A stretch of DNA of 64,000 bases from a virus (IMGVR_UViG_3300018080_000170:6394-70393), one strand, 5' to 3'; shown: positions 2,754 through 21,259, numbered from the stretch's first letter. Notes: generated by a model not told the origin, from the letters alone. Numbers and translations: made by a program.

Positions 2754-3029
2754 ATGAAGATGGGTAAAGAATTCTGGGAAAAGCAATATAAGAAGTGGGG
2801 ATATTCAGGTTGTTATATTCTTGACCTATCGCTAGATGAGCATGAAAAACGGGCGCAAAAGATAGGTCCAAAAGAATGCATGTATACATGTTGGGGATTA
2901 GAGTTTGAAATGGGGGAAGATGGAGATCCATTTTACTGGGAGCTAGATTACGATGGCAAAAAGAAATACAAACAAGTCTACAAAATCTACAAGCGTTATT
3001 CCGAAGTATCGCCAGGTTCTTTTTCTTGA
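2754..3029 (+). CDS. Hypothetical protein
   Basis: ORF with GGAGG RBS. Confidence 0.55.
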   Translation: MKMGKEFWEKQYKKWGYSGCYILDLSLDEHEKRAQKIGPKECMYTCWGLEFEMGEDGDPFYWELDYDGKKKYKQVYKIYKRYSEVSPGSFS

Positions 3030-3525
3030 TATTGATGGTGTCCTCAATTCACATCAAAGTGAAGTAATGTATATGAATCTCCACGATCCGATTCCTTCTA
3101 GCTGGGATCAGCGCCCATGTCCGATTGCACTTGGCAATCTAGTGAAGATTCTCAAAGATTGTCCGGATGTTGTGATTATTATTTCAAGTGCTTGGCGCTA
3201 TTGGAAAAACTTGAAAGAGCTGAAAGAAATGTTTACCGAATGGATCGGAAAGGAATATGCTAAAAGAATCAAAGGAACTACTCCTGTTACAGATATTCGA
3301 ATAGATGGAAGTGAGTATAGAGGGTCGTGTATTAAGAAGTGGATTGAGAAAAATGGGATGCCGTCAAAGTTTATTATTCTAGACGATAATAGCGACATGG
3401 AGCCATATATGGACCATCTCCATAAAACGTGCTCCCTTCATGGTCTTCAGCTTGGAGACGCTTTCATTATTGTAGAATACTTTACAGGTAAGCCATATTA
3501 TAATGGACCGAAAACAGTTATTTAG
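2953..3525 (+). CDS. HAD-superfamily phosphatase (RNA-repair-associated HAD type)
   Basis: FLDIDGVLN motif I, ISSAWR, and ILDD motif. Confidence 0.8.
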   Translation: MAKRNTNKSTKSTSVIPKYRQVLFLDIDGVLNSHQSEVMYMNLHDPIPSSWDQRPCPIALGNLVKILKDCPDVVIIISSAWRYWKNLKELKEMFTEWIGKEYAKRIKGTTPVTDIRIDGSEYRGSCIKKWIEKNGMPSKFIILDDNSDMEPYMDHLHKTCSLHGLQLGDAFIIVEYFTGKPYYNGPKTVI

Positions 3526-4787: not shown

Positions 4788-5030
4788 ATGGACGTCAAAG
4801 AAGAAATATATAGGCTACAAAAACGAGTCAATGAATATCATCAAAAGGTCGAACGAATCCTTGGCTATACAAAAGGAGTTCTTTGGTTTGAAACGCCAAA
4901 TCCGCTTCTTGGAGGAATCACGCCTCTTGATATGATTAAGATGGGAAGACATGAAAAGCTATTTAAATTTATTGACAACCAAATAGCCGAAGGCGGATGG
5001 GAAAAAGATGATGCAAAACACAACGATTAG
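4788..5030 (+). CDS. Stand-alone Xre/MbcA/ParS antitoxin toxin-binding domain protein
   Basis: WFETPNPLLGGITPLDMI matches the W..PN..LGG..P..L signature. Confidence 0.7.
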   Translation: MDVKEEIYRLQKRVNEYHQKVERILGYTKGVLWFETPNPLLGGITPLDMIKMGRHEKLFKFIDNQIAEGGWEKDDAKHND

Positions 5031-5238
5031 ACAGCACATAAAAAGCTGGAGAGCTGAACAACAGGATAATTATAGGACTGTTTGCTTATGTGGAATGTCA
5101 GATTGGAATTATGTATGTGATAAGTTTAATTCAGTTTATCACTGTAATAATTGTGGACGAACAACTTGGATTGATTTAAGAACTGGCGGAGTTAGTGTTA
5201 TTGCTAAAGGGCTGAAATGGGATCAGATTAAGAAGTAG
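5008..5238 (+). CDS. Small Zn-ribbon protein
   Basis: CLCG...CNNCG. Confidence 0.55.
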   Translation: MMQNTTIRQHIKSWRAEQQDNYRTVCLCGMSDWNYVCDKFNSVYHCNNCGRTTWIDLRTGGVSVIAKGLKWDQIKK

Positions 5239-5339
5239 CAACACTTGTCAGGGCCTTCTGCTCAAAAATACAAAGAGCGCAGACCGTCCTTGAGCTGCAA
5301 AAATTACTAAAACAGGTGGCGTGGACAAGGTAGTTGCTG
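5236..5339 (+). ncRNA. Three-way-junction structured RNA candidate, copy A
   Basis: Stems TTGTC/GACAA, AGGGC/GTCCT, GCTGC/GTGGC with junctions TGA and GTG; homologous copy at 15257-15344. Confidence 0.65.
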
Positions 5340-5358
5340 TATAAAGAAAGTAGGGGAT

Positions 5359-5541
5359 ATGGTGAAAAAGCTACATTGTGATATTTGTGACAAATGCAGG
5401 AAAGTATTAGATTACAACCAGATAATTAAACCAATTGTGATACGAGGAAGAAAAGGCCCATATCATTATTGTTCCATGAAGTGTTGTCAAGAGCATGAAG
5501 AAGAGCGTAACGAGAATGAGAAGGTCACGTTTGAAGAATAA
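5359..5541 (+). CDS. Small Cys-rich (TRASH-like) protein
   Basis: CDKC...YCSMKC; RBS present. Confidence 0.55.
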   Translation: MVKKLHCDICDKCRKVLDYNQIIKPIVIRGRKGPYHYCSMKCCQEHEEERNENEKVTFEE

Positions 5542-5761
5542 TCATCCTAAATGGGATGATAACTTCAAAGATATGACTGTAAGACAGGCTAACTGTATTC
5601 GCAAGATGAGGGTGGAATATAACTGTTCTTGGCGGGTGGTAGCTGGAATTTGCGATGGCTTTTGGAATGGTAACTGGGGAGAAAATCAAATTGTCGGAAT
5701 GGATATTTGTAAGAGGGCAATGGAAGTATTAGGCCAAACTTGGGAAGACTGGGGAGAGTAA
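5495..5761 (+). CDS. Hypothetical protein (start uncertain)
   Basis: ORF in the operon. Confidence 0.55.
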   Translation: MKKSVTRMRRSRLKNNHPKWDDNFKDMTVRQANCIRKMRVEYNCSWRVVAGICDGFWNGNWGENQIVGMDICKRAMEVLGQTWEDWGE

Positions 5762-5762
5762 G

Positions 5763-6266
5763 ATGAGGTACATTAAACAAAAGGATACTTATAGTTGCGG
5801 GCCAATTGCTTTAATTAATGCTATGAAGTGGGCGGGCTTCAATTATACTTACAAAGATCTAAAACGAATGCAAAGGCTTTGTAAGTGCAAGTATCCAAAT
5901 GGAACTCATTGGCGAGATATGACTAATGCTATCAGAGATATGTCAAAGCTTATGACCACTACTCGTAAGAATTGGCCGCTTATTCTTGATATTATTAAGC
6001 ACCTGGAGAAGGATGGTGTTGTTATTCTTGCATATAAGAGAGATCCTAAGCATGTTGGGCATTATATTTTGATTACAGATTATGATAAAGAAAAACAAGA
6101 GTTTAAAGTAGTTAATGCTGGTCGTCCTTGTACCCGCACGACATCAAAGATGAAAAAAGATACTCTTGATAATATTATTAAACATCGATATATGAAGAAT
6201 CGCCGCCCACATTTTCCGGCAGCATGGTTTATCAGATTTAAAGTAATGAGGAGAGAGGCAGCATGA
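5763..6266 (+). CDS. C39-like cysteine peptidase
   Basis: Q.....SCGP (catalytic Cys), GHYILI (His), then VVN. Confidence 0.75.
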   Translation: MRYIKQKDTYSCGPIALINAMKWAGFNYTYKDLKRMQRLCKCKYPNGTHWRDMTNAIRDMSKLMTTTRKNWPLILDIIKHLEKDGVVILAYKRDPKHVGHYILITDYDKEKQEFKVVNAGRPCTRTTSKMKKDTLDNIIKHRYMKNRRPHFPAAWFIRFKVMRREAA

Positions 6267-6466
6267 AAAAAAACCAAGAAAAACGTAGAGTTAGAGCTCT
6301 TGAGCGAGCTCGCAAATACCTCAATGATCCCAACCACATACCTAAATGCTGTACTAAGCTAGATAAGAGCTCAGAAGAGTTTAAATTAGCACTAAAACAG
6401 TATAGAAATCAATTATCCAATGAAATCAAAGTATTAGAGGAGCGTACAAAAAACGTTACTTCTTGA
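6263..6466 (+). CDS. Hypothetical protein
   Basis: ATGA-coupled ORF. Confidence 0.55.
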   Translation: MKKNQEKRRVRALERARKYLNDPNHIPKCCTKLDKSSEEFKLALKQYRNQLSNEIKVLEERTKNVTS

Positions 6467-6476
6467 CAAAAAGTTC

Positions 6477-6505
6477 TTGCCTTTTTCTGCGAAATCAGCT
6501 ATAAT
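6477..6505 (+). promoter_or_regulatory. Sigma70-type (early) promoter
   Basis: TTGCCT-17 nt-TATAAT, followed by a strong GGAGG RBS. Confidence 0.75.
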
Positions 6506-6529
6506 ATAAGAAAGAGGGGAGGACATCAT

Positions 6530-6886
6530 ATGAATACAATCACTCGTAAACGGATTCAGAACGGTCACAGGGTCGATGTTGAATTCAAACGCATTGGTTG
6601 GTTTCATGTGAACGAGGAGACGGTTTTTACGCGCACCTATGAGGTTGCGGCCTGGTATACGAACATTGCAGTTCAGCCGGGTTGGTATCCTGTCTATCAA
6701 CAGCGACCGGGCGAGGATTTCTTCGTCGAGATGCCTGGCGTAGTTGTTGGGTCGGATTTCACCTCGCTTTTTTGCGGCAATCGAGTTGGGAGCAAGGTGA
6801 ATGAAGATGTTGGGAAGGAAGATGTCTATGTTTTGAGTGGTTGGAATTTTCAGCTTAAAACGCGTAATGAGATTACGCTTGACTAG
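6530..6886 (+). CDS. Hypothetical (putative early) protein
   Basis: Strong RBS downstream of the promoter. Confidence 0.75.
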   Translation: MNTITRKRIQNGHRVDVEFKRIGWFHVNEETVFTRTYEVAAWYTNIAVQPGWYPVYQQRPGEDFFVEMPGVVVGSDFTSLFCGNRVGSKVNEDVGKEDVYVLSGWNFQLKTRNEITLD

Positions 6887-6897
6887 GAGGAGGGAAT

Positions 6898-7086
6898 ATG
6901 AAAAATAACTATCACCAGTCAGAAGTTTGGAGAGGCGAGAATACTCGCGGTCATTTTGTCCAGATTCTTAAGCTCAATGAAAAAACGTTTTATGTCCGGG
7001 TTGATCGTCATGTGGATAGTGAGTATAAAACGTTTAAGAGTTATGATGAGGCCGCCCGGTTTGCAGAAAAAGCGATTGCAAGTTAG
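6898..7086 (+). CDS. Hypothetical protein
   Basis: GGAGG RBS. Confidence 0.7.
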   Translation: MKNNYHQSEVWRGENTRGHFVQILKLNEKTFYVRVDRHVDSEYKTFKSYDEAARFAEKAIAS

Positions 7087-7097
7087 GAGGGGATGAG

Positions 7098-7388
7098 ATG
7101 AGAGATTTTATTGAGATTGGTCCCGTTCCGGCTGATGAGCCTTGTGCCCAGGTTGGTGAGGAGAATTATCGTGAGAAGGCTTATAAAGAGTGTGCGCGGT
7201 TTATTGAGCTGATTCGCACTAAACTCGGTCCCGAGCCGAAGAAGGCGCGTTTGGCAATTAAAGCTTTTCCGCATGACTTTGGGACCTATCACGAGGTTGT
7301 GTGCTATTTTGACACTCACAATTCAGAGTCGGTTGATTATGCATTTCGATGTGAGAGCGATGCACCGACAACATGGGAGGCTGCGTGA
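7098..7388 (+). CDS. Conserved phage hypothetical protein
   Basis: GP.P..E.CAQVG and HDFGTY.EV motifs; AGGAGG RBS. Confidence 0.75.
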   Translation: MRDFIEIGPVPADEPCAQVGEENYREKAYKECARFIELIRTKLGPEPKKARLAIKAFPHDFGTYHEVVCYFDTHNSESVDYAFRCESDAPTTWEAA

Positions 7389-7540
7389 AGAAATATCGAT
7401 ATCGTTTTGGCGAAGACGATTATTGGACGACTGTTGATAACCCGTGGGATGTTGATCTCAGTTATATGTTCATAGGGGGAGTTTGTATAGTTGAGTGTAT
7501 CGAGGTGGACGAAGAGAAGGAGGAGAGTGCTGGCGAGTAG
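7385..7540 (+). CDS. 51-aa acidic protein missing from the ORF track; its stop codon lies inside tRNA-Asn
   Basis: GTGA coupling, GGAGG RBS, open to TAG at 7538-7540. Confidence 0.55.
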   Translation: MKKYRYRFGEDDYWTTVDNPWDVDLSYMFIGGVCIVECIEVDEEKEESAGE

Positions 7541-7603
7541 TTCAGTTGGTAGAACGCCTGGCTGTTAACCAGGAAGTCGCAGGTTCGAGCCCTGCCTCGC
7601 CAG
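7531..7603 (+). tRNA. tRNA-Asn(GTT), CCA not encoded
   Basis: Full cloverleaf: TGGCGAG/CTCGCCA, GTTC/GAAC D arm, CCTGG-CTGTTAA-CCAGG, GCAGG-TTCGAGC-CCTGC. Confidence 0.95.
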
Positions 7604-7626
7604 CAGTTTTTAGAGGAGGAAAGGAA

Positions 7627-7815
7627 ATGACAAGCAAGAGTTTTCTTACCGTCTCTCTGACGAAGACAGAGATTCAAGTTTTCGATGTAACGCGAGGGGA
7701 GTTTGTTCTTAAGGTCCCGCGTGAGGGTAACGAGGACTTGATTGAGCGTTTTGGTCTCAGCGAGGAGAGCGCCACACTTCAGATCATCGAGAACACAGAG
7801 GAGGAGATTGCATGA
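7627..7815 (+). CDS. Hypothetical protein
   Basis: ATG with GGAGG RBS after the tRNA (the ORF-track start lies upstream of the tRNA). Confidence 0.7.
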   Translation: MTSKSFLTVSLTKTEIQVFDVTRGEFVLKVPREGNEDLIERFGLSEESATLQIIENTEEEIA

Positions 7816-8006
7816 AGCACAAAATCACATACGCAATTTCAAGCGAGCTTGAAGAAACTCTTAATAAGATTACCGCTAATGATGGAGATGTAATTTCTGT
7901 CTTGGATAATGGTACAGTTGAGCGTCACGTGTTTACCGGGATGCCGAAAGAAACTTGTCGAGAGTTCATGATTGTCTACCGGCAGTTTGAGGAGGGGGAT
8001 TTTTAA
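7812..8006 (+). CDS. Hypothetical protein
   Basis: ATGA-coupled, RBS present. Confidence 0.7.
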   Translation: MKHKITYAISSELEETLNKITANDGDVISVLDNGTVERHVFTGMPKETCREFMIVYRQFEEGDF

Positions 8007-8035
8007 AACGGTATAATGAATTATAGGAGGAGGTA

Positions 8036-8251
8036 ATGAGAGTATTGTTAGTTGTTTGGGGCCTATTGACGGGCTTTTTGCTTGTGAAGGTTATCACTCT
8101 GTATATTGACAATGTGCAGTTAGAGGTTCGATATAGTATGGCATGGGATGCATTTAAGTGTTGTGCAAAGAATTTGACACCGACCGGCGCCCTTGGAACG
8201 AAAGAGTGTTGGGACGAGGCAGCAAGAAAATATTTGAAGGAGGAAGAGTAA
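8036..8251 (+). CDS. Small membrane-anchored protein
   Basis: N-terminal hydrophobic helix; AGGAGG RBS. Confidence 0.65.
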   Translation: MRVLLVVWGLLTGFLLVKVITLYIDNVQLEVRYSMAWDAFKCCAKNLTPTGALGTKECWDEAARKYLKEEE

Positions 8252-8556
8252 TGAAGGCTAAGACAGTTAAGGTTTCGGTCCCAGCTGAAACATACGCTGA
8301 GATCGAAGCCCAGCTTAAAAAGGATGTAAAGAAACAACTTACCACCCTCGAGCGTCAGGTAAAGAACAAAGAGGCTACAATTAATCGCCTTAAGAATAAA
8401 ATCAATGAGCTTCAGGGTAATCAACGAGAAGTTGTTGAAAAAGCCCATAAGATTGTCCAAGCTTTTAGTCAGCTTACAGCGCTACAGGAATTGGCTGAGG
8501 AGTGGTTGGGAAAGAAGTATAAGCTTGAGGAAAATAATGAGGAGGATTACTGGTGA
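8251..8556 (+). CDS. Coiled-coil hypothetical protein
   Basis: TAATG coupling; heptad pattern. Confidence 0.65.
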   Translation: MKAKTVKVSVPAETYAEIEAQLKKDVKKQLTTLERQVKNKEATINRLKNKINELQGNQREVVEKAHKIVQAFSQLTALQELAEEWLGKKYKLEENNEEDYW

Positions 8557-9029
8557 AAATTAAAAAAGTAGATTGGTATTGCTTCAACCATGAGAAAGTT
8601 TATGAGAAGTTTGAAGGCGATTTGAAGTTTATCAATGAGTTTTGTGTTAGAGGCTGGTATCAGCCTGTTGCTGTTTATCGCAATTCTAATCCCAATCGTG
8701 AGAAGAATCATAAAGATTATATGCTTCTATTTATGGACTATGAGTATACCTTCTTTGGTCCAGAAGAAGAGGCGCCAAGACGTCTTATTGTATCTGGAAT
8801 GGATGCAGATGAAATGGAAAAATATCGCTATCAGGGGGCTGTTCATTGCTTGGAATGTGATACAGTCTTGTATAGTATTAATAGACACCACTACCATACA
8901 TGTGATTGTCCGAATAAGGCAATGGTAGATGGTGGAAAAGATTATTTGAAATATGGCTCAAAGAATGGCGCGATTAGAGTTGTTAAGCTTGACCTATTGA
9001 CTAATACGATTGTAGAGGATAAAGAATGA
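8553..9029 (+). CDS. Phage Zn-binding hypothetical protein
   Basis: C..C...S..RH....C.C....VDGG.DY motif common in phages. Confidence 0.7.
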   Translation: MKIKKVDWYCFNHEKVYEKFEGDLKFINEFCVRGWYQPVAVYRNSNPNREKNHKDYMLLFMDYEYTFFGPEEEAPRRLIVSGMDADEMEKYRYQGAVHCLECDTVLYSINRHHYHTCDCPNKAMVDGGKDYLKYGSKNGAIRVVKLDLLTNTIVEDKE

Positions 9030-9994
9030 GTATTAAAGTTTTCTGTGGAACTGCTTCAATGAGTCTTGCTAGCGACATAGTTGCAGATTTAAGTGTATTA
9101 CTTGGCCATTGTGTTACTTTGGGGGAGATGTCGGGGAAGCGTTTTGATGACAAAGAGCTGTTTGTAAAGGTAGAAGAAAGCGTAAGAGGAGAGGATGTAT
9201 TCGTTGTTCAATCTACTAGCTCACCAGCTAACGAAACTTTAATGGAGCTTCTGATTATAATTGATGCCCTAAAGAGAGCCTCGGCTGGCAGGGTAACAGC
9301 TGTGATTCCTTATTTTGGATATGCGCGACAAGATCGCAAAACCTCGCCTCGAACGGCGATTACAGCTAAATTGGTAGCAGATCTAATCACAGTCTCAGGA
9401 GCAGATCGAGTGATCACCATTGATCTTCATTCGCCTCAAATTCAAGGTTTTTTTAACATTCCAGTTGACCACCTTTTGGCCGGTCCGCTTTTTGTTAAGT
9501 ATATTGAAGAGCGCTATTCATGGGATGATAAACTTACGATTGTTTCGCCGGATGCCGGAGGAGCAGCGAGAGCTCATACATTTGCTAAATATTTAGGCGT
9601 TCCTTTGGCGGTGATGAGTAAGAGGCGGAATGAACATAATAAAGTCGAGACGATGGAAATTATTGGAGATGTAAAGGGAAGAGATATTTTTATCTTTGAT
9701 GATATGTGTGATACAGCTGGAACGCTGCTTATGGCGGCCGATGTGTTGAAAGAAAAAGGGGCGGAGGATGTGAGAGCAGCAGTCACTCATCCGGTGCTTT
9801 CTGGGTGGACGATGGATAGGATAGAACAGTCTGAATCATTAACAGAATTAATTATAACTGATACAATTAAGCTTGAAGAACGAATTGAAGATTCTGATAA
9901 GATTCAAATCGTTTCGGTGGCCGGGCTATTGGCACAGGCAATTAGATGTATTTATACTGATGACTCAATAGGAGCCTTATATAGCTATAAATAA
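9026..9994 (+). CDS. prs: Ribose-phosphate pyrophosphokinase (PRPP synthetase)
   Basis: PYFGYARQDRK, DLHSPQIQGFF, VSPDAGG and DDMCDTAGT motifs. Confidence 0.95.
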   Translation: MSIKVFCGTASMSLASDIVADLSVLLGHCVTLGEMSGKRFDDKELFVKVEESVRGEDVFVVQSTSSPANETLMELLIIIDALKRASAGRVTAVIPYFGYARQDRKTSPRTAITAKLVADLITVSGADRVITIDLHSPQIQGFFNIPVDHLLAGPLFVKYIEERYSWDDKLTIVSPDAGGAARAHTFAKYLGVPLAVMSKRRNEHNKVETMEIIGDVKGRDIFIFDDMCDTAGTLLMAADVLKEKGAEDVRAAVTHPVLSGWTMDRIEQSESLTELIITDTIKLEERIEDSDKIQIVSVAGLLAQAIRCIYTDDSIGALYSYK

Positions 9995-10017
9995 GCGGAG
10001 GCGTGTGCTCAAATATA

Positions 10018-10145
10018 GTGCTCGGATCCCTAGGTGGATGGGAGGGTTAGGTGTTAGGGCAAGCTATAGAAACCCATCACTCTCTATAGCCTCTGCGAAT
10101 ACGTCCACCCAATGGCCGTCCTAACACGTCCGTTGGGCCGAGCAC
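10018..10145 (+). ncRNA. Pseudoknotted structured RNA candidate
   Basis: Five nested helices plus a 10-bp crossing pairing (10051-10060 with 10118-10127) in a GC-rich intergenic gap. Confidence 0.6.
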
Positions 10146-10163
10146 AAAGAAAAAGGAAAGGGA

Positions 10164-10454
10164 ATGATTAAACGATTACTAGCACTGAACATAATGCTTA
10201 AGTTTCTGGATGTATATCTAACGCGGATTGCGTTAGGTATTGGAGGAAGAGAGGCTAATCCGATAGCTGATTTTCTCATGCAGATTCTAGGAGTTGATTG
10301 GGCTTTGTTACTATTATTTTGCTGGGTAGTAGCAATTATGACAATCATTGCTCAGTACTATTCTAAAGCAGTTTATGTACTTGGAATTATTGGTATTTTG
10401 CATGGCTCCGTTGTCTTGTGGAATAGTTATGTGATCTATAGACTTTTAGCTTGA
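10164..10454 (+). CDS. DUF5658-like small membrane protein
   Basis: D..LT...L..GG.EANP motif and three hydrophobic segments. Confidence 0.7.
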   Translation: MIKRLLALNIMLKFLDVYLTRIALGIGGREANPIADFLMQILGVDWALLLLFCWVVAIMTIIAQYYSKAVYVLGIIGILHGSVVLWNSYVIYRLLA

Positions 10455-10479
10455 TCTTTGGTCCGAAGTAGGATATAAT
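10451..10479 (+). promoter_or_regulatory. Sigma70-type promoter
   Basis: TTGATC-17 nt-TATAAT. Confidence 0.65.
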
Positions 10480-10499
10480 AAAGATAGAGGAGAAAGATC

Positions 10500-10790
10500 A
10501 TGAAGAGATTTTTGCTGTGCCCGCAGGATGGAGGGTTACACGATATAGAATGCGACGATCATAATGTCAAGATGACATACTCGGAGTTTGATAAAAGCTG
10601 GACTAAGCCCGGTGGTGTTTGTGGAAAGCTTCACGACCATGGGAATGGTCTTTCTATTAAGACAGATGGGGCTGAGTATAGGTGGGATTATTGTAAGGCG
10701 TATTACATCTTCACGATGTTGGAAGAGTATTATAAAGCGAGCGGTCAAGATCCTTATTGTCGAAAGTTTGAGGTGGAGGAAGTTAAATAG
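10500..10790 (+). CDS. Hypothetical protein
   Basis: GAGGAG RBS after the promoter. Confidence 0.7.
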   Translation: MKRFLLCPQDGGLHDIECDDHNVKMTYSEFDKSWTKPGGVCGKLHDHGNGLSIKTDGAEYRWDYCKAYYIFTMLEEYYKASGQDPYCRKFEVEEVK

Positions 10791-11290
10791 TGTCAGAAGT
10801 CTTCTTTACATCGGATCATCATTTCGGTCATACCAATATCATCAAACATACTAATCGTCCGTTTAAAAATGCTAATCAAATGAATGAACGCTTGATAGCT
10901 GAATGGAATACAATTGTTCGGCCAGATGATGTAGTTTATCATTTGGGCGATTTTGCCTGGGGTAATAACGCAGAGAGAATTGGTTCGTTCATAAAAAGAT
11001 TAAATGGGAACAAACATTTGGTTCTCGGTAATCATGATAAATTGAAACCTTTTTCATATGTTGAGGCTGGCTTTCTGAGCGTGCATACCAGTCTAGAGTT
11101 TAATGGTATTTATTTGGCTCATGATCCGGCTGTTAAAGTAGCCTTACAGAAAGGTGATTGGTTAATTCATGGACACATTCATAATCTATGGAAAATAGAA
11201 GAGGATAAGAAACTGATTAATGTATCAGTGGAAGTTTGGGACTATAAACCGGTTATGTACGAAACCTTACGATGTATAATAAAGGAGTAA
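10790..11290 (+). CDS. Calcineurin-like metallophosphoesterase
   Basis: SDHHFGH, LGDF, GNHD and HGHIH motifs. Confidence 0.9.
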   Translation: MSEVFFTSDHHFGHTNIIKHTNRPFKNANQMNERLIAEWNTIVRPDDVVYHLGDFAWGNNAERIGSFIKRLNGNKHLVLGNHDKLKPFSYVEAGFLSVHTSLEFNGIYLAHDPAVKVALQKGDWLIHGHIHNLWKIEEDKKLINVSVEVWDYKPVMYETLRCIIKE

Positions 11291-11349
11291 ATCCGCCCTG
11301 TAAAGGGTATTATAAAAGTCGCTCCGTCGGGAGCAATGTACAAGACATA

Positions 11350-11450
11350 GCGCTGGGGCGAGGCTGGCTCGCCCAACCCGGGTTCTAGAACTGGGTAAGT
11401 GCACAGGGTTTTAGCGCAGAGTTCGCTAGAAGTTAGTCAGACCCCAGCGC
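11350..11450 (+). ncRNA. Multibranch (tRNA-like) structured RNA candidate
   Basis: Perfect 9-bp closing stem GCGCTGGGG/CCCCAGCGC enclosing three hairpins. Confidence 0.55.
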
Positions 11451-11473
11451 CCTTATTTGAGGAGGAGAGGAAA

Positions 11474-11716
11474 GTGGCCAATAAGGAAATAAATACGGGA
11501 GGAATTAGCGTTACTGGGCTACTGGGAGTTGCTTTTGTCGTGTTGAAGTTGACGGGAGTAATTGATTGGTCTTGGGGTTGGGTGCTAGCGCCATTTTGGA
11601 TTCCACTAGTTATATTTTTGACGATTTTCGCAATGGCAATTGTGGGATTTGTGGTATTTGCTCTTGGCAAAGCGTATATGCAACAAAGACGAGATAAGAG
11701 GAGGTATGGACGATGA
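11474..11716 (+). CDS. Phage two-TM membrane protein
   Basis: LKLTGVIDWSW.WVLAPFW family motif; GTG start with strong RBS. Confidence 0.75.
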   Translation: MANKEINTGGISVTGLLGVAFVVLKLTGVIDWSWGWVLAPFWIPLVIFLTIFAMAIVGFVVFALGKAYMQQRRDKRRYGR

Positions 11717-12258
11717 GGAGAGCATTATTTGCAGTTACGTTAATCTTGATGGGCTTATTTTTAATTAGCTGTGGAAGCGAGAAGATCGTTGAAACAGTTA
11801 CTAATAATGGACCACAAGGTGAACAAGGAGAAATGGGAGAGCCGGGCGAAACGGTTGTTGTAGAGGTTCCAACTCTACCGGAGTTTGTTGGTGAGTATTA
11901 TTTGCCATTTTCTGGCTATGTTATCATCAATGTGAACCATGAGGATGAATACTCTGTTACAGCTCGCTATGAAACATTGAACCCAGACGACTCTATTTGC
12001 GTGTTATCTCTGAATGGAAGTACAATTGATTTGCATAATGATATCTTGCTGTATGGAGCAACAGTGAGCCTTGTTAGCGGAAATTGTGATGACGATACTA
12101 CAGGAGCAGCTTTATCGACTGGCTCAGGTCGAAACTACCGATATGAAGTAGTGATTGGCTTTAATGATGATGATTTGCTAACAGTTAACTTGCAAGTGTT
12201 TCAGACCCGCAATGGGGTGACAACTCGAGTTATTAACCGAGATATGGTTGAGGAATAA
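11713..12258 (+). CDS. Lipoprotein with short collagen-like linker
   Basis: Lipobox LISC; GPQGEQGEMGEPG. Confidence 0.7.
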   Translation: MRRALFAVTLILMGLFLISCGSEKIVETVTNNGPQGEQGEMGEPGETVVVEVPTLPEFVGEYYLPFSGYVIINVNHEDEYSVTARYETLNPDDSICVLSLNGSTIDLHNDILLYGATVSLVSGNCDDDTTGAALSTGSGRNYRYEVVIGFNDDDLLTVNLQVFQTRNGVTTRVINRDMVEE

Positions 12259-12259
12259 A

Positions 12260-12592
12260 ATGAAACTAGAAGAACTGAAAGATTTTTATCTTATTTTGGT
12301 TAATGAAGAAGACAATCTTGTTTGTCAGAATACTAGTTATCTTTCCAAAGATTGCGCAATCAATGAAAATTGCTGTATCTCAGCACAATATTTGCATACT
12401 AGCGAAGAAGGGTACGATGGATGCCCGAGTATAAATTACGGAGATTTTCATAAGTGGGAAGCCTATGAGTATTTTACTCAAGCTTTTGAGAATGTAAAAT
12501 CGCCTGAAACAAAAATTACTTTACTATATCAAATGTTGTTAAGAACAACTCGTCAGCTGCAAGAGCTTAGATGTCAGTTAAGGAGCGTATAA
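12260..12592 (+). CDS. Hypothetical protein
   Basis: GAGGA RBS. Confidence 0.6.
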   Translation: MKLEELKDFYLILVNEEDNLVCQNTSYLSKDCAINENCCISAQYLHTSEEGYDGCPSINYGDFHKWEAYEYFTQAFENVKSPETKITLLYQMLLRTTRQLQELRCQLRSV

Positions 12593-12774
12593 TGACAGCC
12601 TGGAAAGCAGCACCTACAAAGCGCGAAACAGGGAGACCTCGTAAGAAGTGCCCTAAGTGCGGTAATGATATGATTGTAGCTAAAAAGGCTGAAAATTGGA
12701 AGTCTATTTGGATGTGCGAGAAGTGTGATCATAGGATGCCCAAAGTTAAGGGAGATGTGGAGTATTGGAAATGA
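12592..12774 (+). CDS. Small Zn-ribbon protein
   Basis: CPKC...CEKC; AAGGAG RBS. Confidence 0.6.
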   Translation: MTAWKAAPTKRETGRPRKKCPKCGNDMIVAKKAENWKSIWMCEKCDHRMPKVKGDVEYWK

Positions 12775-12989
12775 AGATTTATGGCGTACTAAACGACTGG
12801 GATTGTAAGGAACTTTACTACAAGACCAAAAAAGCAGCACGGGAAGCTGCTGAGCGTATTTGTGACCGAATGAATAAAAAACATCGTGGAACTAAAACGA
12901 TTGTGCTTGATTTTACAAAACGCACGTCTCCAAAAGAAGAAAGCGAGACGTGCGTTTCAATCTTTGAGCACACTGTGAGGGAAAAATGA
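12765..12989 (+). CDS. Hypothetical protein
   Basis: Overlapping operon ORF. Confidence 0.55.
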   Translation: MEMKIYGVLNDWDCKELYYKTKKAAREAAERICDRMNKKHRGTKTIVLDFTKRTSPKEESETCVSIFEHTVREK

Positions 12990-13240
12990 TTAAGTATATC
13001 TTGATCGTGTTAACAGGATTATTGCTTCTCTGTATAATGAACGTGGTAAGGGCAGATGTAGGGGATGTTTGCATTAATTATAGTGAAATGATGTCAGCAT
13101 GTACTCAGCTTTGTCGTTTTAAGGGAATGGAAAGAACCGGTTTTGATTTTACAGGAGAGGTGAATATAAATTTAATGACTGGGACTAAGAGGTGTATTTG
13201 TGAAAAAGCAAAGAAGAAAGACACCGACAAAGGTAATTAA
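12986..13240 (+). CDS. Small secreted Cys-rich protein
   Basis: Signal-peptide-like N-terminus; several Cys residues. Confidence 0.55.
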   Translation: MIKYILIVLTGLLLLCIMNVVRADVGDVCINYSEMMSACTQLCRFKGMERTGFDFTGEVNINLMTGTKRCICEKAKKKDTDKGN

Positions 13241-13970
13241 ATTCCCAGATTTAAAGAAACCTCGTTTATCGCTAAGGCAGCGATTTCTTGAGAACTTTTG
13301 GTTACAAATTCTTGTGAGACTTATCTTGTTAATGGCAACCTTATATTTAATTGTTAGTTTGATTGGCTGTGGAGAAGATCTCAGTAATTGCGGAAAGGAA
13401 AGTTTTCCGGCAACATTCTATGTTCACAGCGATTTTCCTGAGGAACGTATCCAGTATATTGAAGAGGCAATGGAATTGTGGAACCAGGCTTTAGGAAAAG
13501 AGGTTTTTAAATATGGCGGCCGCTCTGATGATCCTTATGATACGGATGATTATATTAATACAATTCAGTGGTTAGGAGACGAACTAAGTGATGAAGCCGC
13601 AGGGGATGCAGTTTGGTGGATAGGTTGTGGAGCAAAAATAAGATGCGATGTTAGAGTAAAAAAATATGGATTTGGGGTTCCCAAAACAAATGAGGATGGA
13701 TCAAGAACATATTACGCTGATATGGGAAATGATTATCTTCGAGCTTTAATAATGCATGAGCTCGGACATTGTATGAATTTACGACACACAGAGAATAAGT
13801 TCGATATTATGTATGGTGATGGAATCTATAATCCTAGCGGTGAATACGAATTGAGTATATTTGATATTGAGAGAGCAAAGAAAGAGCTTGGTTTAAGCGA
13901 GGAGATTTACTACGAGAATGGACAGCCTAATCGAACTAATCTCTGCGTAACAAAAACATTTTCGGAGTAA
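13200..13970 (+). CDS. Membrane-anchored matrixin-like (metzincin) Zn-metalloprotease
   Basis: HELGHCMNLRH zinc motif, Met-turn DIMY, TM segment ending LIGC. Confidence 0.85.
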   Translation: MKKQRRKTPTKVIKFPDLKKPRLSLRQRFLENFWLQILVRLILLMATLYLIVSLIGCGEDLSNCGKESFPATFYVHSDFPEERIQYIEEAMELWNQALGKEVFKYGGRSDDPYDTDDYINTIQWLGDELSDEAAGDAVWWIGCGAKIRCDVRVKKYGFGVPKTNEDGSRTYYADMGNDYLRALIMHELGHCMNLRHTENKFDIMYGDGIYNPSGEYELSIFDIERAKKELGLSEEIYYENGQPNRTNLCVTKTFSE

Positions 13971-14552
13971 GTGGTGAGAGAGATAATAAAAGCATTGAAA
14001 GACATTGAACCAAAAACGGGACTGTGGCAAAAAATCTATCTATCCGATTGGTTTGATGTGATCTATAGACCCTATTGTAGGGTGTGGCATTTCTGTTCTA
14101 CGATTAAGAAAATGTTTATATATTTCCCACTTATTTGGCGCGACCAAGATTGGGATGCTGATTTTCTATATGAGATGATGGAATTTAAGATGGAGCGGAT
14201 GCTGAAAGCTCTCAAAGAAGGAAGTGCCGAACATGATAAGGATACTCTACAGGCTCTCAGGATTTGTGCTCGCATTATGCATCGCCTAAGTCACAGGTGG
14301 GAGTATCATGATCGTATTTGGGCTCGTCATGATGAGAAGTGGGGTAATATTAAATCTCGTTTCGGTCCCTCGCGCGAGGATGGACTCCGCCAGTGGATCG
14401 TGGAAAGAGAGAATGTCAAAACTCCTGAGGACGAAGAGCAAGAAAGAAAAGATATGTTTGAGTGTATAGAAATGGAAGAAAAGATTGTGTCAAGAGATCT
14501 AAAGATATTTGGTAAGTTGTTTGCCAAATATTCAAGATCATGGTGGGACTGA
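13971..14552 (+). CDS. Conserved phage hypothetical protein
   Basis: PLIW.D.DWD motif and C-terminal WWD. Confidence 0.7.
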   Translation: MVREIIKALKDIEPKTGLWQKIYLSDWFDVIYRPYCRVWHFCSTIKKMFIYFPLIWRDQDWDADFLYEMMEFKMERMLKALKEGSAEHDKDTLQALRICARIMHRLSHRWEYHDRIWARHDEKWGNIKSRFGPSREDGLRQWIVERENVKTPEDEEQERKDMFECIEMEEKIVSRDLKIFGKLFAKYSRSWWD

Positions 14553-14761
14553 TCATGAAAAAGACATTTACGCTTACGTTTGTGGCCGATGAATCATTTA
14601 CAATGGAGCAGTTGGACAATCTTTTGTGGGATGCTGGATATAGAAATGAGCTCTATTTTCCAGTTGACAAGACTTCTCATCCAGTAATGAAGGTAGAAAA
14701 ACGCAATGAAAACAAAAATAAAGGTACTCATCGCGCTGGTTTTTTTGACACTGGCGTCTAA
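14540..14761 (+). CDS. Hypothetical protein (start uncertain)
   Basis: Operon ORF. Confidence 0.5.
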   Translation: MVGLIMKKTFTLTFVADESFTMEQLDNLLWDAGYRNELYFPVDKTSHPVMKVEKRNENKNKGTHRAGFFDTGV

Positions 14762-15017
14762 TGTGTATTCTTTTGACCACGAAGATAAACTATATCATGC
14801 TGGTGGGTCTTTTGCGATTAACCATGTTCTATATGTAGTCTGCAAAAACCAATTGAAATTTAGCAAGAATGAGTGTATAATAGGGAGTAGTGTGGTTACT
14901 ATGGGATTGGGGCTGGCAAAGGAATACGTTAAAGATCCTCAAGCAGATCCCTATGATATCTTAGCTAACTCAGGAGGCATCGGGCTATCAATCCCGTTTC
15001 TTATCTGGGAGTATTAA
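14706..15017 (+). CDS. YfiM/VanZ-like small membrane protein
   Basis: DK.YH...S, AKE..D and D..AN..G motifs after a signal peptide. Confidence 0.6.
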   Translation: MKTKIKVLIALVFLTLASNVYSFDHEDKLYHAGGSFAINHVLYVVCKNQLKFSKNECIIGSSVVTMGLGLAKEYVKDPQADPYDILANSGGIGLSIPFLIWEY

Positions 15018-15209
15018 ATGCCGAAATGCTACGTCCGAGAGAAGGACGAAAATGGTAAATGGGTCAACACTCCGTTTGACACCTATGAAGAAGCATCAGA
15101 GTATGTAGATAGGAAATATTGCAAATGGGAGTGGGAGGAGCGTCAAAAGAAGAAGGAAAGGAAAGAATCCAAACAGTCAAAACTACAGGATGTGACTTTT
15201 AACAAATAA
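15018..15209 (+). CDS. Hypothetical protein
   Basis: GGGAG RBS. Confidence 0.55.
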   Translation: MPKCYVREKDENGKWVNTPFDTYEEASEYVDRKYCKWEWEERQKKKERKESKQSKLQDVTFNK

Positions 15210-15256
15210 TTTAATTATCTTCGGAAATCCGGTATAATAATAATCGTATATGAGGT

Positions 15257-15344
15257 TCAACTCGTCAGGATCTTACAACACTGAGATTGTAATTATTCTT
15301 GAGCCAAAACAGTAACGCAGTCATAGTTGGCGTGGACGAATTGA
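15257..15344 (+). ncRNA. Three-way-junction structured RNA candidate, copy B
   Basis: Stems TCGTC/GACGA, AGGAT/ATTCT, GCCAA/TTGGC with the same TGA and GTG junctions as copy A; TATAAT at 15233-15238. Confidence 0.65.
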
Positions 15345-15371: not shown

Positions 15372-15653
15372 ATGAAACAATTCAAGACCGACAATCTTGC
15401 ACTATGTCCTTATTTGGAGATGGAAGGACTTAAGTATTCTCACGCCGAGTGGGGAATGGGAAAAAATAATAAGTCTAAAGTTTATTTTGTTTTTAATGAT
15501 GAAAAAGGTACCGGTCGAGATCTAGAAATTAGCTTCAGATTCTCTGACTTTAAGAAGTACAGAGATCTGGGGTTCTTTTATAGAGCGGAGATTGAAAAGC
15601 TTCGCCGTGAGAACAAAGAAGAAGATTTGAAGAAAAATAAAGGGAACAAGTAA
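15372..15653 (+). CDS. DUF5659-like protein
   Basis: F.T.NL.L..YL...G and VYFVF pattern. Confidence 0.6.
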   Translation: MKQFKTDNLALCPYLEMEGLKYSHAEWGMGKNNKSKVYFVFNDEKGTGRDLEISFRFSDFKKYRDLGFFYRAEIEKLRRENKEEDLKKNKGNK

Positions 15654-16021: not shown

Positions 16022-16069
16022 TTGTATAATAAAATAATATCACAATAAAATTACCAAGGAGGTAAGATT

Positions 16070-17049: not shown

Positions 17050-17128
17050 GCCACCTGTTCATCGGTACTGGGCGAGTAAGGCGGGATAAGCGGATGCGGG
17101 AGAATGGGTATAATTAAGGTAGGTTTAA

Positions 17129-21202: not shown

Positions 21203-21259
21203 TTTGACAAAAATGTCAAATCAATTTAATTTAAATTGTGCATAAAAAGATACTATAAT
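21203..21259 (+). promoter_or_regulatory. Palindrome TTTGACA-AAAA-TGTCAAA and downstream TATAAT box
   Basis: Perfect 7-bp inverted repeat at 21203-21220; TATAAT at 21254-21259. Confidence 0.45.

What the first reader, a model, noticed from the sequence alone, without database searches (positions are those of the whole stretch)
5236..15344. Two dispersed copies of an unassigned three-way-junction RNA motif with compensatory base changes
Seen: intergenic 5236-5339 and 15257-15344 share an invariant core, GTC|AGG...CT|TGA|GC...GC|GTG|GAC, while the helices differ in sequence but keep pairing. P1 is TTGTC/GACAA versus TCGTC/GACGA; P2 is AGGGC/GTCCT versus AGGAT/ATTCT; distal P2 is TCTGC/GCAGA versus TTACAA/TTGTAA; P3 is GCTGC/GTGGC versus GCCAA/TTGGC. 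P3 carries a large variable loop (17 versus 19 nt). Both copies end shortly before an RBS, and copy B starts just after TATAAT. Inference: covariation around a fixed junction indicates a selected RNA (or ssDNA) fold. It could be a protein-binding regulatory leader, a processing or self-cleaving element, or a scaffold presenting variable guide/antisense loops. I cannot match it to hammerhead, twister, pistol, HDV or the common riboswitch consensuses.
Basis: partly seen in the sequence, partly recalled or inferred. Interest (0 to 1): 0.85.

Follow-up and report, generated by a model that had tools for sequence, protein, structure and literature searches.

The report
Unassigned three-way-junction RNA in a phage
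Two short stretches between genes of an uncultured SPO1-like phage fold into the same three-armed RNA shape with an identical centre, match no catalogued RNA family, occur only in this small phage lineage, and have an unknown role.

Summary
Window 5236-5339 and 15257-15344 (+ strand) share a 25-nt junction core, and their helices differ in sequence but still pair. A covariance model built only from copy A and its orthologue finds copy B at E=1.7e-5, the only other hit in 64 kb. With the core fixed and the variable segments shuffled, all four known sequences fold far better than chance: z -3.4 to -6.0, and at most 1 of 300 shuffles as stable. Both copies are kept about 11 kb apart in a complete 113.6-kb relative whose capsid protein is 93% identical. 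Copy A differs there at 26 of 101 positions yet keeps the fold. G.U pairs point to + strand RNA. Rfam 15 gives no match. Scans of viral, metagenome and genome collections, and model searches of 78 capsid-related phage contigs and 4 Herelleviridae genomes, found no further members. This is a real, unassigned RNA motif, but only four distinct sequences from two lineages are known. Its function was not shown. My best guess is a protein-recognised processing or translational-control element in cis. I found no riboswitch expression platform and no conserved loop targets. The junction also fits the kink-turn sequence consensus.

The parts
5236..5339 (+). Copy A, whole element. It consists of outer P1 (5236-5242 with 5333-5339), inner P1, the P2 hairpin, P3 and the junction. 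It starts at the TAG stop of ORF 5008-5238.
   Evidence: 123 bits. The orthologue in G002 has the three-way junction as its MFE.
5245..5254 (+). Copy A: P1 5' strand TTGTC (5245-5249) and P2a 5' strand AGGGC (5250-5254), with no linker between them. GTCAGG is invariant in all 4 sequences.
5286..5298 (+). Copy A: P2a 3' strand GTCCT, J2/3 TGA (5291-5293) and P3 5' strand GCTGC. CTTGAGC is invariant.
5316..5328 (+). Copy A: P3 3' strand GTGGC, J3/1 GTG (5321-5323) and P1 3' strand GACAA. GGCGT.GAC is conserved. Read another way, this is the bulged strand of a kink-turn: C stem, 3-nt bulge, then GA.
   Evidence: The kink-turn rules were read in PMC10573300 and PMC4005666.
15257..15344 (+). Copy B, whole element. 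It consists of outer P1 (15257-15260 with 15341-15344), P1, P2, P3 and the junction.
   Evidence: 25.3 bits, E=1.7e-5, with a model built without it
15233..15238 (+). TATAAT, a -10-like hexamer 18 nt upstream of copy B and conserved in the relative. Similar TATAAT sites lie in other intergenic gaps of the window.
   Evidence: This is a consensus match only; no transcript data exist.
5359..5541 (+). 60-aa Cys-rich ORF. Its Shine-Dalgarno sequence (AGGGGA) begins about 11 nt after copy A, and its ATG lies 19 nt after copy A.
   Evidence: There is a weak treble-clef match.
15372..15653 (+). 93-aa ORF. An A-rich spacer and a Shine-Dalgarno sequence (AAGGAAAAG) follow copy B, and the ATG lies 27 nt after it.
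   Evidence: There is a weak DUF5659 match below the cut-off.

Best explanation
The two elements are paralogous copies of a lineage-specific structured RNA domain of about 75-100 nt. They are transcribed on the + strand as part of phage mRNAs. Copy B lies in a 5' leader just downstream of a sigma-70-like -10 box. Copy A lies between two cistrons. Each folds on its own into a three-way junction: a long, imperfect P1, a bipartite P2 hairpin, and a 5-bp P3 with a 17-19-nt A-rich loop. About 25 nt at the helix ends and junction strands are invariant.

Inferred, not shown: this invariant centre is the recognition site for one trans-acting protein, either a host endoribonuclease of the RNase III kind or a phage or host RNA-binding regulator. 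That protein would process, stabilise or translationally tune the small gene that starts 19-27 nt downstream, in the same way at both sites.

The junction strands also fit the kink-turn consensus. P3 would be the C stem, GUG the 3-nt bulge, and GA on each strand the tandem pair. That would give a sharply bent, protein-friendly shape.

My confidence that this is a selected + strand RNA structure is about 0.8. My confidence in the protein-recognised cis element reading is about 0.4, which is the figure given in the confidence field.
For: Shown:
- Homology of A and B without circularity.
- Exactly 2 copies in each of the 3 related records, and no others at E<=10.
- Orthologous positions kept about 11 kb apart.
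- Helices hold despite sequence change. Pair counts: 94.6% of cells paired, against at most 66.7% when slid, and 4 of 20 pairs with changes on both sides.
- Copy A and its orthologue differ at 26 of 101 positions. Random mutants with the same number of changes lose about 9 kcal/mol. Only 20 of 400 and 4 of 400 are as stable as the observed sequences.
- Core-fixed shuffles give z -4.6, -6.0, -3.4 and -4.2, with 0, 0, 1 and 0 of 300 as stable.
- G.U pairs occur on the + strand only.
- In longer transcripts the element folds as a self-contained domain. The spacer and Shine-Dalgarno sequence are not paired with it in any of the 4 sequences.
- No terminator-like site follows either copy.

Inferred:
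- Two sites with one invariant core and free helices is the usual signature of a shared protein partner.
- P1 stacked on P2 would give roughly 24 bp of imperfect duplex with internal loops, ending just before a ribosome-binding site. That resembles the intercistronic RNase III sites of T7 (recalled) and of the SPO1-like phage SP82. For SP82 I saw passages in PMC4838370 and PMC1935012: the SP82 targets have internal loops and are cut once, on the downstream side of the stem.
- The phage's capsid protein is 30-32% identical to those of Herelleviridae.
Against: - No transcript, cleavage or binding data exist. No RNA run was listed, and that blank is not evidence either way.
- Only 4 distinct sequences are known, from 2 lineages that are about 75-84% identical in DNA. 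The two orthologue pairs are not independent.
- The B pair alone has no power: 8 differences, with 85 and 218 of 400 random mutants as stable.
- RNase III sites are not normally three-way junctions with sequence-invariant centres.
- No RNase III, L7Ae-family or RNA ligase gene was found in this record or in the complete relative, so any partner would have to be a host protein or one of the many unannotated small phage proteins.
- The MFE of the window's own A and B is a different fold. B has a competing hairpin in P2.
- The - strand of B folds at least as well by energy (-21.0 against -18.0 kcal/mol, z -2.19).
- The kink-turn reading competes with two Watson-Crick pairs of P1 (U-A and C-G of GUC/GAC). 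Those pairs never vary, so neither reading is tested.
Confidence: 0.4

Rival explanations
1. It is a small-molecule-sensing aptamer (riboswitch). The invariant junction would form a ligand pocket and control translation of the downstream small genes.
For: A three-way junction closed by P1 with conserved junction-proximal nucleotides is a common aptamer plan (established knowledge: the purine, TPP and c-di-GMP-I classes). The element sits in a 5' leader or just upstream of a ribosome-binding site. The P2a 3' strand (UCCUU or UUCUU) is anti-Shine-Dalgarno-like by direct reading.
Against: No expression platform was found. There is no terminator-like site after either copy. The Shine-Dalgarno sequence is not paired with the element in extended folds of any of the 4 sequences. 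P1 is long and stable (9-14 bp), which suits a switch poorly. The distribution is extremely narrow. The downstream genes are unrelated small proteins with no metabolic theme. Rfam gives no match.
Confidence: 0.1
2. It is a new class of self-cleaving ribozyme that cuts phage polycistronic transcripts between genes.
For: It is small and intercistronic, has a three-way junction and about 25 invariant nucleotides, and occurs in more than one copy per phage genome. These traits are shared with phage hammerheads (listing and abstract of PMC3088659). GUC directly precedes the P2 strand, as GUC precedes the cleavage site in hammerheads (direct reading and recalled consensus).
Against: The hammerhead core (CUGANGA and GAAA) is absent on both strands by direct reading. 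No hit to any Rfam ribozyme family appeared at E<=10. Only 6 junction nucleotides are formally unpaired. New ribozyme classes are rare among unassigned motifs, so the prior is low.
Confidence: 0.07
3. It is a put-like cis-acting RNA that binds the transcribing RNA polymerase and makes it resistant to pausing and termination across the downstream genes.
For: HK022 has exactly two put RNAs of about 70 nt. They share sequence, consist of two stem-loops meeting at a bifurcation, and lie downstream of the early promoters (PMC9378689, passages). Here there are two copies per genome, two hairpins (P2 and P3) meeting at a conserved centre, and copy B starts about 18 nt after a -10-like box.
Against: put has no closing P1 helix. 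Copy A has no recognisable promoter just upstream: it abuts the stop codon of the preceding ORF. Terminator-like sites downstream are not clearly enriched (20 found against 12.9 +/- 3.1 expected, both strands). I had no put sequence, so I made no sequence comparison.
Confidence: 0.08
4. It is a trans-acting small RNA or scaffold whose variable P2 and P3 loops base-pair with phage or host targets.
For: The loops are large, single-stranded and differ between the copies. The P3 loop of copy A has a 14-nt perfect complement at 35765-35778, inside ORF 34606-36072. None of 200 shuffled loops reached 14 nt.
Against: The other 3 loops have no unusual complement: 186, 199 and 174 of 200 shuffles do as well. 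In the relative, the A-type loop differs and its best complement is ordinary (10 nt, with 179 of 200 shuffles as long). The target region has no DNA match there. No terminator defines a discrete small RNA. Host genomes were not tested because the host is unknown.
Confidence: 0.05
5. It has no function of its own. It is a relic of an old duplication of an intergenic segment, or a DNA-level site (operator or recombination site), and the apparent helices are incidental.
For: The family is tiny: 2 loci in 2 distinct lineages. All the junction-proximal 'pairs' are invariant, so they give no covariation. The MFE folds of the window's copies differ from the proposed structure.
Against: Outside the core, A and B share little sequence, yet each forms helices at the same places (z -3.4 to -6.0). 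The orthologue of A keeps all helices through 26 changes, including 3 double compensatory changes in P2a, P2b and P3. The G.U pairs give a strand asymmetry that double-stranded DNA sites would not show. The 21-codon ORFs that overlap both copies are not conserved, and the shared core lies in different frames in A and B (and the orthologues).
Confidence: 0.15

Closest known systems
[quoted passage not shown]
   Same: The strand leaving P3 reads C stem (..GGC), a 3-nt bulge (GUG, or GUU in one sequence), then GA. The strand entering P3 reads GA then GC.. This is the standard k-turn signature, with -1b.-1n = C-G as in Kt-7. The rules were read in PMC10573300 (parts 1-2) and PMC4005666 (passages). 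The Kt-7 letters are partly recalled. The only junction position that varies is the one corresponding to L3, which in k-turns points away from the RNA. Like a k-junction, the motif sits in a three-way junction.
   Different: [quoted passage not shown] Here A1n directly abuts P3, and the extra helix (P2) branches on the NC side, between the 2n and 3n positions. The two GA nucleotides of the bulged strand can instead form Watson-Crick pairs with UC of GUC in P1. No 3D or folding data exist. Rfam gave no hit to DUF3268 or any k-turn-bearing family.
Intercistronic RNase III processing sites of phage early mRNAs (T7 R sites; Bs-RNase III sites of the SPO1-like phage SP82)
   Same: They are dispersed, related stem structures with internal loops that lie between small genes, just upstream of ribosome-binding sites, in a phage distantly related to Herelleviridae. 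P1 and P2 together span about two helical turns.
   Different: The known sites are described as hairpins with an internal loop, not three-way junctions with an invariant centre. Model R1 found nothing in SP82G or SPO1. Cleavage has not been tested. My recollection that the SP82 sites resemble one another in sequence comes from Panganiban and Whiteley 1983, which I saw only as a citation.
HK022 putL/putR polymerase-utilisation RNAs
   Same: There are two sequence-related copies per phage genome, each about 70-100 nt, with two hairpins meeting at a conserved bifurcation, on the sense strand downstream of promoters (PMC9378689, passages).
   Different: put RNAs have no closing helix. Only copy B here is promoter-proximal. 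No sequence comparison was made, and no evidence of antitermination exists.
Hammerhead ribozyme
   Same: It is a three-way junction of similar size, GUC lies at the 5' side of the junction, and it is common in phage intergenic regions.
   Different: The conserved CUGANGA and GAAA strands are absent on both strands. The junction strands here are 0, 3 and 3 nt long. No Rfam hammerhead model matched at E<=10.

Membership tests
Any Rfam 15 family (4227 models, including hammerhead, twister, twister-sister, pistol, hatchet, HDV-like, riboswitch classes, r-protein leaders, DUF3268, Y RNA, phi29 pRNA) | A covariance-model match at or near the family's gathering score | tested here: not met
   Whole window at gathering threshold: only tRNA at 7531-7603. 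The two loci at E<=10 with lax filters: only unrelated noise, namely gut-2 at E 0.29 outside the element, mir-1842 and snoR11.
Hammerhead ribozyme | Core strands CUGANGA (between stems I and II) and GAAA (between stems II and III), with NUH at the cleavage site | tested here: not met
   By direct reading, the junction strands are none, UGA and GUG on the + strand, and CAC and UCA on the - strand. Only GUC is present. The consensus is recalled.
Kink-turn | A 3-nt bulge followed on its 3' side by tandem G.A / A.G pairs (GA on both strands), with a Watson-Crick C helix on the 5' side of the bulge | tested here: inconclusive
   The sequence signature is present in all 4 sequences..GGC|GUK|GA.. and ..GA|GC... 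The GA of the bulged strand can alternatively pair with UC of P1, and no covariation discriminates between the two.
Kink-turn | A continuous NC helix beyond the G.A pairs, and the kinked 3D geometry with its cross-strand A-minor hydrogen bonds | not testable with these tools
   The NC side is a helical junction here (P1 and P2). Testing needs FRET, crystallography or probing.
k-junction (TPP riboswitch, DUF3268) | [quoted passage not shown] | tested here: not met
   A of UGA is directly followed by the first G of P3 in all 4 sequences. The third helix lies on the other side of the GA. The definition comes from PMC4005666 and PMC10573300.
Riboswitch (as a kind) | An aptamer coupled to an expression platform: a terminator/antiterminator, or sequestration of the Shine-Dalgarno sequence that overlaps the aptamer | tested here: not met
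   No terminator-like site lies after either copy. The Shine-Dalgarno sequence and spacer are not paired with the element in extended folds of the 4 sequences.
Riboswitch (as a kind) | Specific ligand binding | not testable with these tools
   Testing needs in-line probing or ITC.
RNase III processing site | About 20 bp or more of (imperfect) duplex, and specific cleavage by RNase III | tested here: inconclusive
   The duplex length is met only if P1 (9-14 bp) stacks on P2 (10-12 bp). Cleavage is not testable here. The phage has no RNase III gene, so a host enzyme would be needed.
HK022 put RNA | Two stem-loops without a closing helix, downstream of early promoters, binding the RNAP beta' zinc-binding domain and suppressing termination | tested here: inconclusive
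   The copy number and two-hairpin centre are similar. A closing P1 is present, and only B is promoter-proximal. Activity is not testable here.

The most novel reading that the evidence does not exclude
The element is a new functional RNA class, either a self-cleaving ribozyme or a ligand- or protein-gated switch. It would be built on an unusual kink-turn-in-a-three-way-junction scaffold and used by an uncultured SPO1-like phage lineage to cut or gate its small-gene transcripts at two places.
Probability: 0.12. Interest if true: 0.85.

Novelty: new variant of a known kind. Interest (0 to 1): 0.45.

Why it matters
If it is real, this is a new structured RNA family from an uncultured lineage of large SPO1-like myoviruses. 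Almost nothing is known about how such phages control their many small genes. The element is compact (about 75 nt of core), has a sharply defined invariant centre and is easy to synthesise, so cleavage, ligand, protein-binding and kink-turn folding tests are cheap.

A kink-turn whose non-canonical side opens into a helical junction would add a variant to the k-turn and k-junction repertoire. The limits are the very narrow distribution and the absence of any functional or expression data. It is a good candidate motif, not a discovery of mechanism.

Tried and rejected
Homologue hunting, all negative beyond the same phage lineage:
- Exact-core pattern in viral contigs: 23 stretches. Two are the relatives G001 and G002. 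The other 21 are G+C-rich and lack the helices.
Of 126 matches examined, only the known loci fit.
- Three further relaxed patterns gave 32, 53 and 22 stretches. Model R1 over 86 of those loci gave best E-values of 0.14 and 0.57.
- Metagenome contigs: 46 stretches, 2 of them from the same 113,606-bp contig.
- Genome contigs: 45 stretches. Pairing filter and R1 over all 91 loci: apart from the 2 known loci, the best hits are L299 (23.8 bits) and L268/L274 (20.5 bits). L299 and L268 both lie inside long ORFs of 934 and 542 aa. These loci were preselected for the core, so their scores are inflated.
- Capsid-based retrieval gave 80 loci, 78 of them new, with capsid proteins 34-48% identical.
- R1 over 50 whole records: 7 have a match at E<=1, the best at 0.238, and none is credible on inspection.
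- R1 over the other 28 as held loci only: best E 0.062.
- SP82G, SPO1, YungSlug and vB_EalM-132 as whole records: only YungSlug matched (E 0.036-0.42), and those alignments lack P2.
- blastn of 1-kb flanks against the phage collection: no match.

Ideas rejected:
- Small ORF. 21-codon ORFs overlap both copies. However, the shared core lies in different frames in A and B, the A-type ORF is cut short in the relative, and the B-type start codon is lost there (reading).
- Guide loops.
- Shine-Dalgarno sequestration.
- Mimicry of the S15 site of 16S rRNA. This was a comparison from memory only. A shared CUUGAG and a similar junction topology did not survive a pair-by-pair check, so I claim nothing.
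- Canonical k-junction (see the membership test).
- Phage-encoded L7Ae, RNase III or RNA ligase: 0 of 2 records each.

No RNA holder was listed for this phage. One DNA run holds it, probably the source sample.

The literature search for similar phage three-way-junction motifs gave nothing specific. I do not claim that the motif is absent from print. Supplementary files were not consulted.

Full report
WHAT IS THERE

The window is bases 6394-70393 of a 70,393-bp IMG/VR virus record, estimated 62% complete. It is a contractile-tailed phage:
- major head protein at 1199-2665, tail sheath at 29086-31260, and baseplate and fibre genes;
- a block of about 45 small + strand genes between the head and tail modules. 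This block holds tRNA-Asn, a PRPP synthetase, a HAD domain of the 'Swiss Army Knife' RNA-repair proteins and a metallophosphoesterase.

The capsid protein is 30-32% identical to those of Herelleviridae, the SPO1, SP82 and Twort-like phages. Both elements lie in the small-gene block.

CHECKING THE OBSERVATION

Exact sub-coordinates are in the parts list.

Copy A (5236-5339) begins at the TAG stop codon of ORF 5008-5238 and ends 19 nt before the ATG of a 60-aa ORF. Copy B (15257-15344) begins 18 nt after a TATAAT box (15233-15238) and ends 27 nt before the ATG of a 93-aa ORF. Similar TATAAT boxes stand in several other intergenic gaps.

The two downstream proteins are unrelated to each other, and neither reaches a Pfam cut-off or matches any PHROG at E<=0.01.

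IS IT MORE THAN CHANCE?

1. Homology of the two copies. A model made only from copy A and its orthologue (R2) finds copy B at 25.3 bits, E=1.7e-5. That is the only other match at E<=10 in both strands of the window.

2. Conservation in relatives. Two related records carry the elements: G001 (90,697 bp) and G002 (113,606 bp, with terminal repeats, complete). Their capsid proteins are 93% identical to this one. Each carries one A-type and one B-type element about 11 kb apart, as here. G001 and G002 are identical to each other in both elements, so there are four distinct sequences. Model R1, built from all four, finds exactly two matches per record and nothing else at E<=10.

3. Pair counts. On the 4-row alignment, 94.6% of 74 pair cells are standard pairs. 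Shuffled partners give 88.3 +/- 2.0% (1 of 500 shuffles as high). Sliding the partners by 1-3 columns gives 27.9-66.7%. 4 of 20 pairs change on both sides (25 of 500 shuffles), and the covariation score is 0.317 against 0.196 (5 of 500). MAFFT misaligns the 3' strand of distal P2 in the B rows, which accounts for 2 of the 4 unpaired cells.

4. Survival of substitutions. The A orthologues differ at 26 of 101 aligned positions. That divergence is like the flanking DNA, which is 74.5% identical over 4797-5761. Even so, the orthologue's minimum-energy fold is exactly the three-way junction.
   - The changes include double compensatory changes in P2a (C-G to U-A), distal P2 (U-A to C-G) and P3 (C-G to U-A).
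   - Three changes convert wobble pairs to Watson-Crick pairs or the reverse.
   - P1 is re-paired despite an indel (and reading).
   - Random mutants with the same number of changes average -23.0 and -21.5 kcal/mol. The observed sequences are at -30.7 and -32.1. Only 20 of 400 and 4 of 400 random mutants are as stable.
   - The B pair differs at only 8 positions and gives no signal (85 and 218 of 400).

5. Shuffling the variable segments. I held the invariant core in the junction and shuffled the variable segments. The observed energies lie 3.4-6.0 standard deviations below the shuffles (0, 0, 1 and 0 of 300).

Points against:
- Plain MFE folding of the window's own A and B gives other folds that are 3.1 and 2.2 kcal/mol better.
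- B has a competing 6-7-bp hairpin inside P2.
- The whole-sequence z-score of B on the + strand is weak at -0.82.
- The two orthologue pairs are not independent samples.

WHICH STRAND AND WHICH MOLECULE?

Six of the 74 pair cells are G.U. On the other strand they would be A.C. All neighbouring genes are on the + strand. This favours + strand RNA over the - strand, double-stranded DNA or single-stranded DNA.

The - strand of B does fold with a lower energy, so the argument rests on the wobble pairs and the context.

21-codon ORFs overlap both copies. However, the shared core lies in different frames in A and B, and the ORFs are not kept in the relative. Coding does not explain the conservation.

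HOW WIDE IS THE FAMILY?

I found no members outside this lineage.
- Rfam 15 gave nothing.
So did the scans of JGI and ENA metagenome contigs and of one genome per GTDB species. I checked these by pairing, by model R1 and by ORF context.
- Of 78 contigs whose capsid proteins are 34-48% identical, none has a credible match. That covers 50 whole records and 28 held loci.
- None of four Herelleviridae genomes, including SP82G and SPO1, has one either.
- Relatives at 62-63% capsid identity exist but could not be fetched.

WHAT IT MIGHT DO

Shown:
- The element is a self-contained domain.
- In longer transcripts its fold is unchanged. The A-rich spacer and Shine-Dalgarno sequence are not paired with it.
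- No terminator-like site follows it.
- The loops have no conserved targets.

This argues against a conventional riboswitch and against the guide-loop idea.

The pattern is one invariant 25-nt centre shared by two sites while the helices drift. That is what a common protein partner would produce. The placement, long imperfect duplexes with internal loops just upstream of ribosome-binding sites in a small-gene block, resembles the intercistronic RNase III sites of phage early mRNAs. Such sites exist in the SPO1-like phage SP82. There the targets have internal loops and are cut once, on the downstream side of the stem (passages of PMC4838370 and PMC1935012). I saw the original papers only as citations.

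I therefore favour a protein-recognised processing, stability or translational-control element acting in cis, at about 0.4. Neither this record nor the complete relative encodes RNase III, an L7Ae-family protein or an RNA ligase. The partner would be a host protein or one of the unannotated small phage proteins.

A put-like polymerase-modifying RNA is an attractive analogy. HK022 has two related copies, each made of two hairpins, downstream of promoters (PMC9378689). But put lacks a closing helix, and copy A here is not promoter-proximal.

A new ribozyme class cannot be excluded. The hammerhead core is absent.

A STRUCTURAL DETAIL WORTH TESTING

The strand leaving P3 reads ..GGC GUG GA.., and the strand entering P3 reads ..GA GC.. 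That is the kink-turn signature: a C stem, a 3-nt bulge and tandem G.A pairs. The single junction position that varies (G to U in the B orthologue) corresponds to L3, the bulge nucleotide that points away from the RNA in k-turns.

It is not a canonical k-junction. In those, the third helix is inserted between A1n and the C helix. Here it branches on the other side of the G.A pairs.

Those positions never vary, so the present data cannot decide between the two readings.

VERDICT

This is a real, unassigned structured RNA motif, supported by several tests that are not fully independent of each other. It rests on four sequences from one narrow phage lineage, and no function has been shown. It is a new RNA family of a familiar kind, a cis element in phage mRNAs. 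It would be worth a few bench assays, which would quickly separate the readings.

Noticed in passing
window 2953-3525, 7531-7604, 9026-9994, 10790-11290: The small-gene block holds four notable genes: a HAD domain of the 'Swiss Army Knife' RNA-repair proteins (PF18143, E=4e-20), tRNA-Asn(GUU), a ribose-phosphate pyrophosphokinase and a calcineurin-like phosphoesterase. This set hints at RNA or tRNA damage repair and nucleotide salvage during infection. No RNA ligase gene was found.
   Followed up: partly
window 35765-35778 (inside ORF 34606-36072, a tail protein with a lysin domain): This is a 14-nt perfect complement to the P3 loop of copy A. None of 200 shuffled loops reached 14 nt. Neither the loop sequence nor a DNA match to this region is kept in the relative G002, so it is probably chance.
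   Followed up: yes
window 9995-10163: A 169-nt G+C-rich gap lies between the PRPP synthetase gene and the next ORF, with long-range complementarity. The fold is not unusual (z -0.77, 43 of 200 shuffles as stable), and Rfam gave no match at E<=1 over 9950-11450.
   Followed up: partly
window 15267-15299 (P2 of copy B): An alternative 6-7-bp hairpin (AUCUUA/UGAGAU with a 6-nt loop) competes with the proposed P2. It is the MFE fold in the window's copy B, and it could still form in the relative. It could be a second conformation or just noise.
   Followed up: partly
window 6490-6495, 10472-10477, 16025-16030, 17105-17110, 21254-21259 (approximate): Several intergenic gaps carry perfect TATAAT boxes shortly before strong Shine-Dalgarno sequences. 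This suggests that host sigma-70/sigma-A-type promoters drive many small-gene units. The consensus scan as a whole was not enriched over shuffles (47 found against 46.4 expected).
   Followed up: no
window 47344-56811: A 3155-aa ORF ends in an endosialidase-chaperone (Peptidase_S74) domain. It is probably a giant tail fibre. This part of the genome is poorly conserved, and its matches in the relative are scattered out of order.
   Followed up: no
window 5245-5310 and 15250-15315: Both elements are overlapped by + strand ORFs of exactly 21 codons. The shared core lies in different frames in the two ORFs, and the ORFs are not preserved in the relative, so the equal length looks coincidental.
   Followed up: yes
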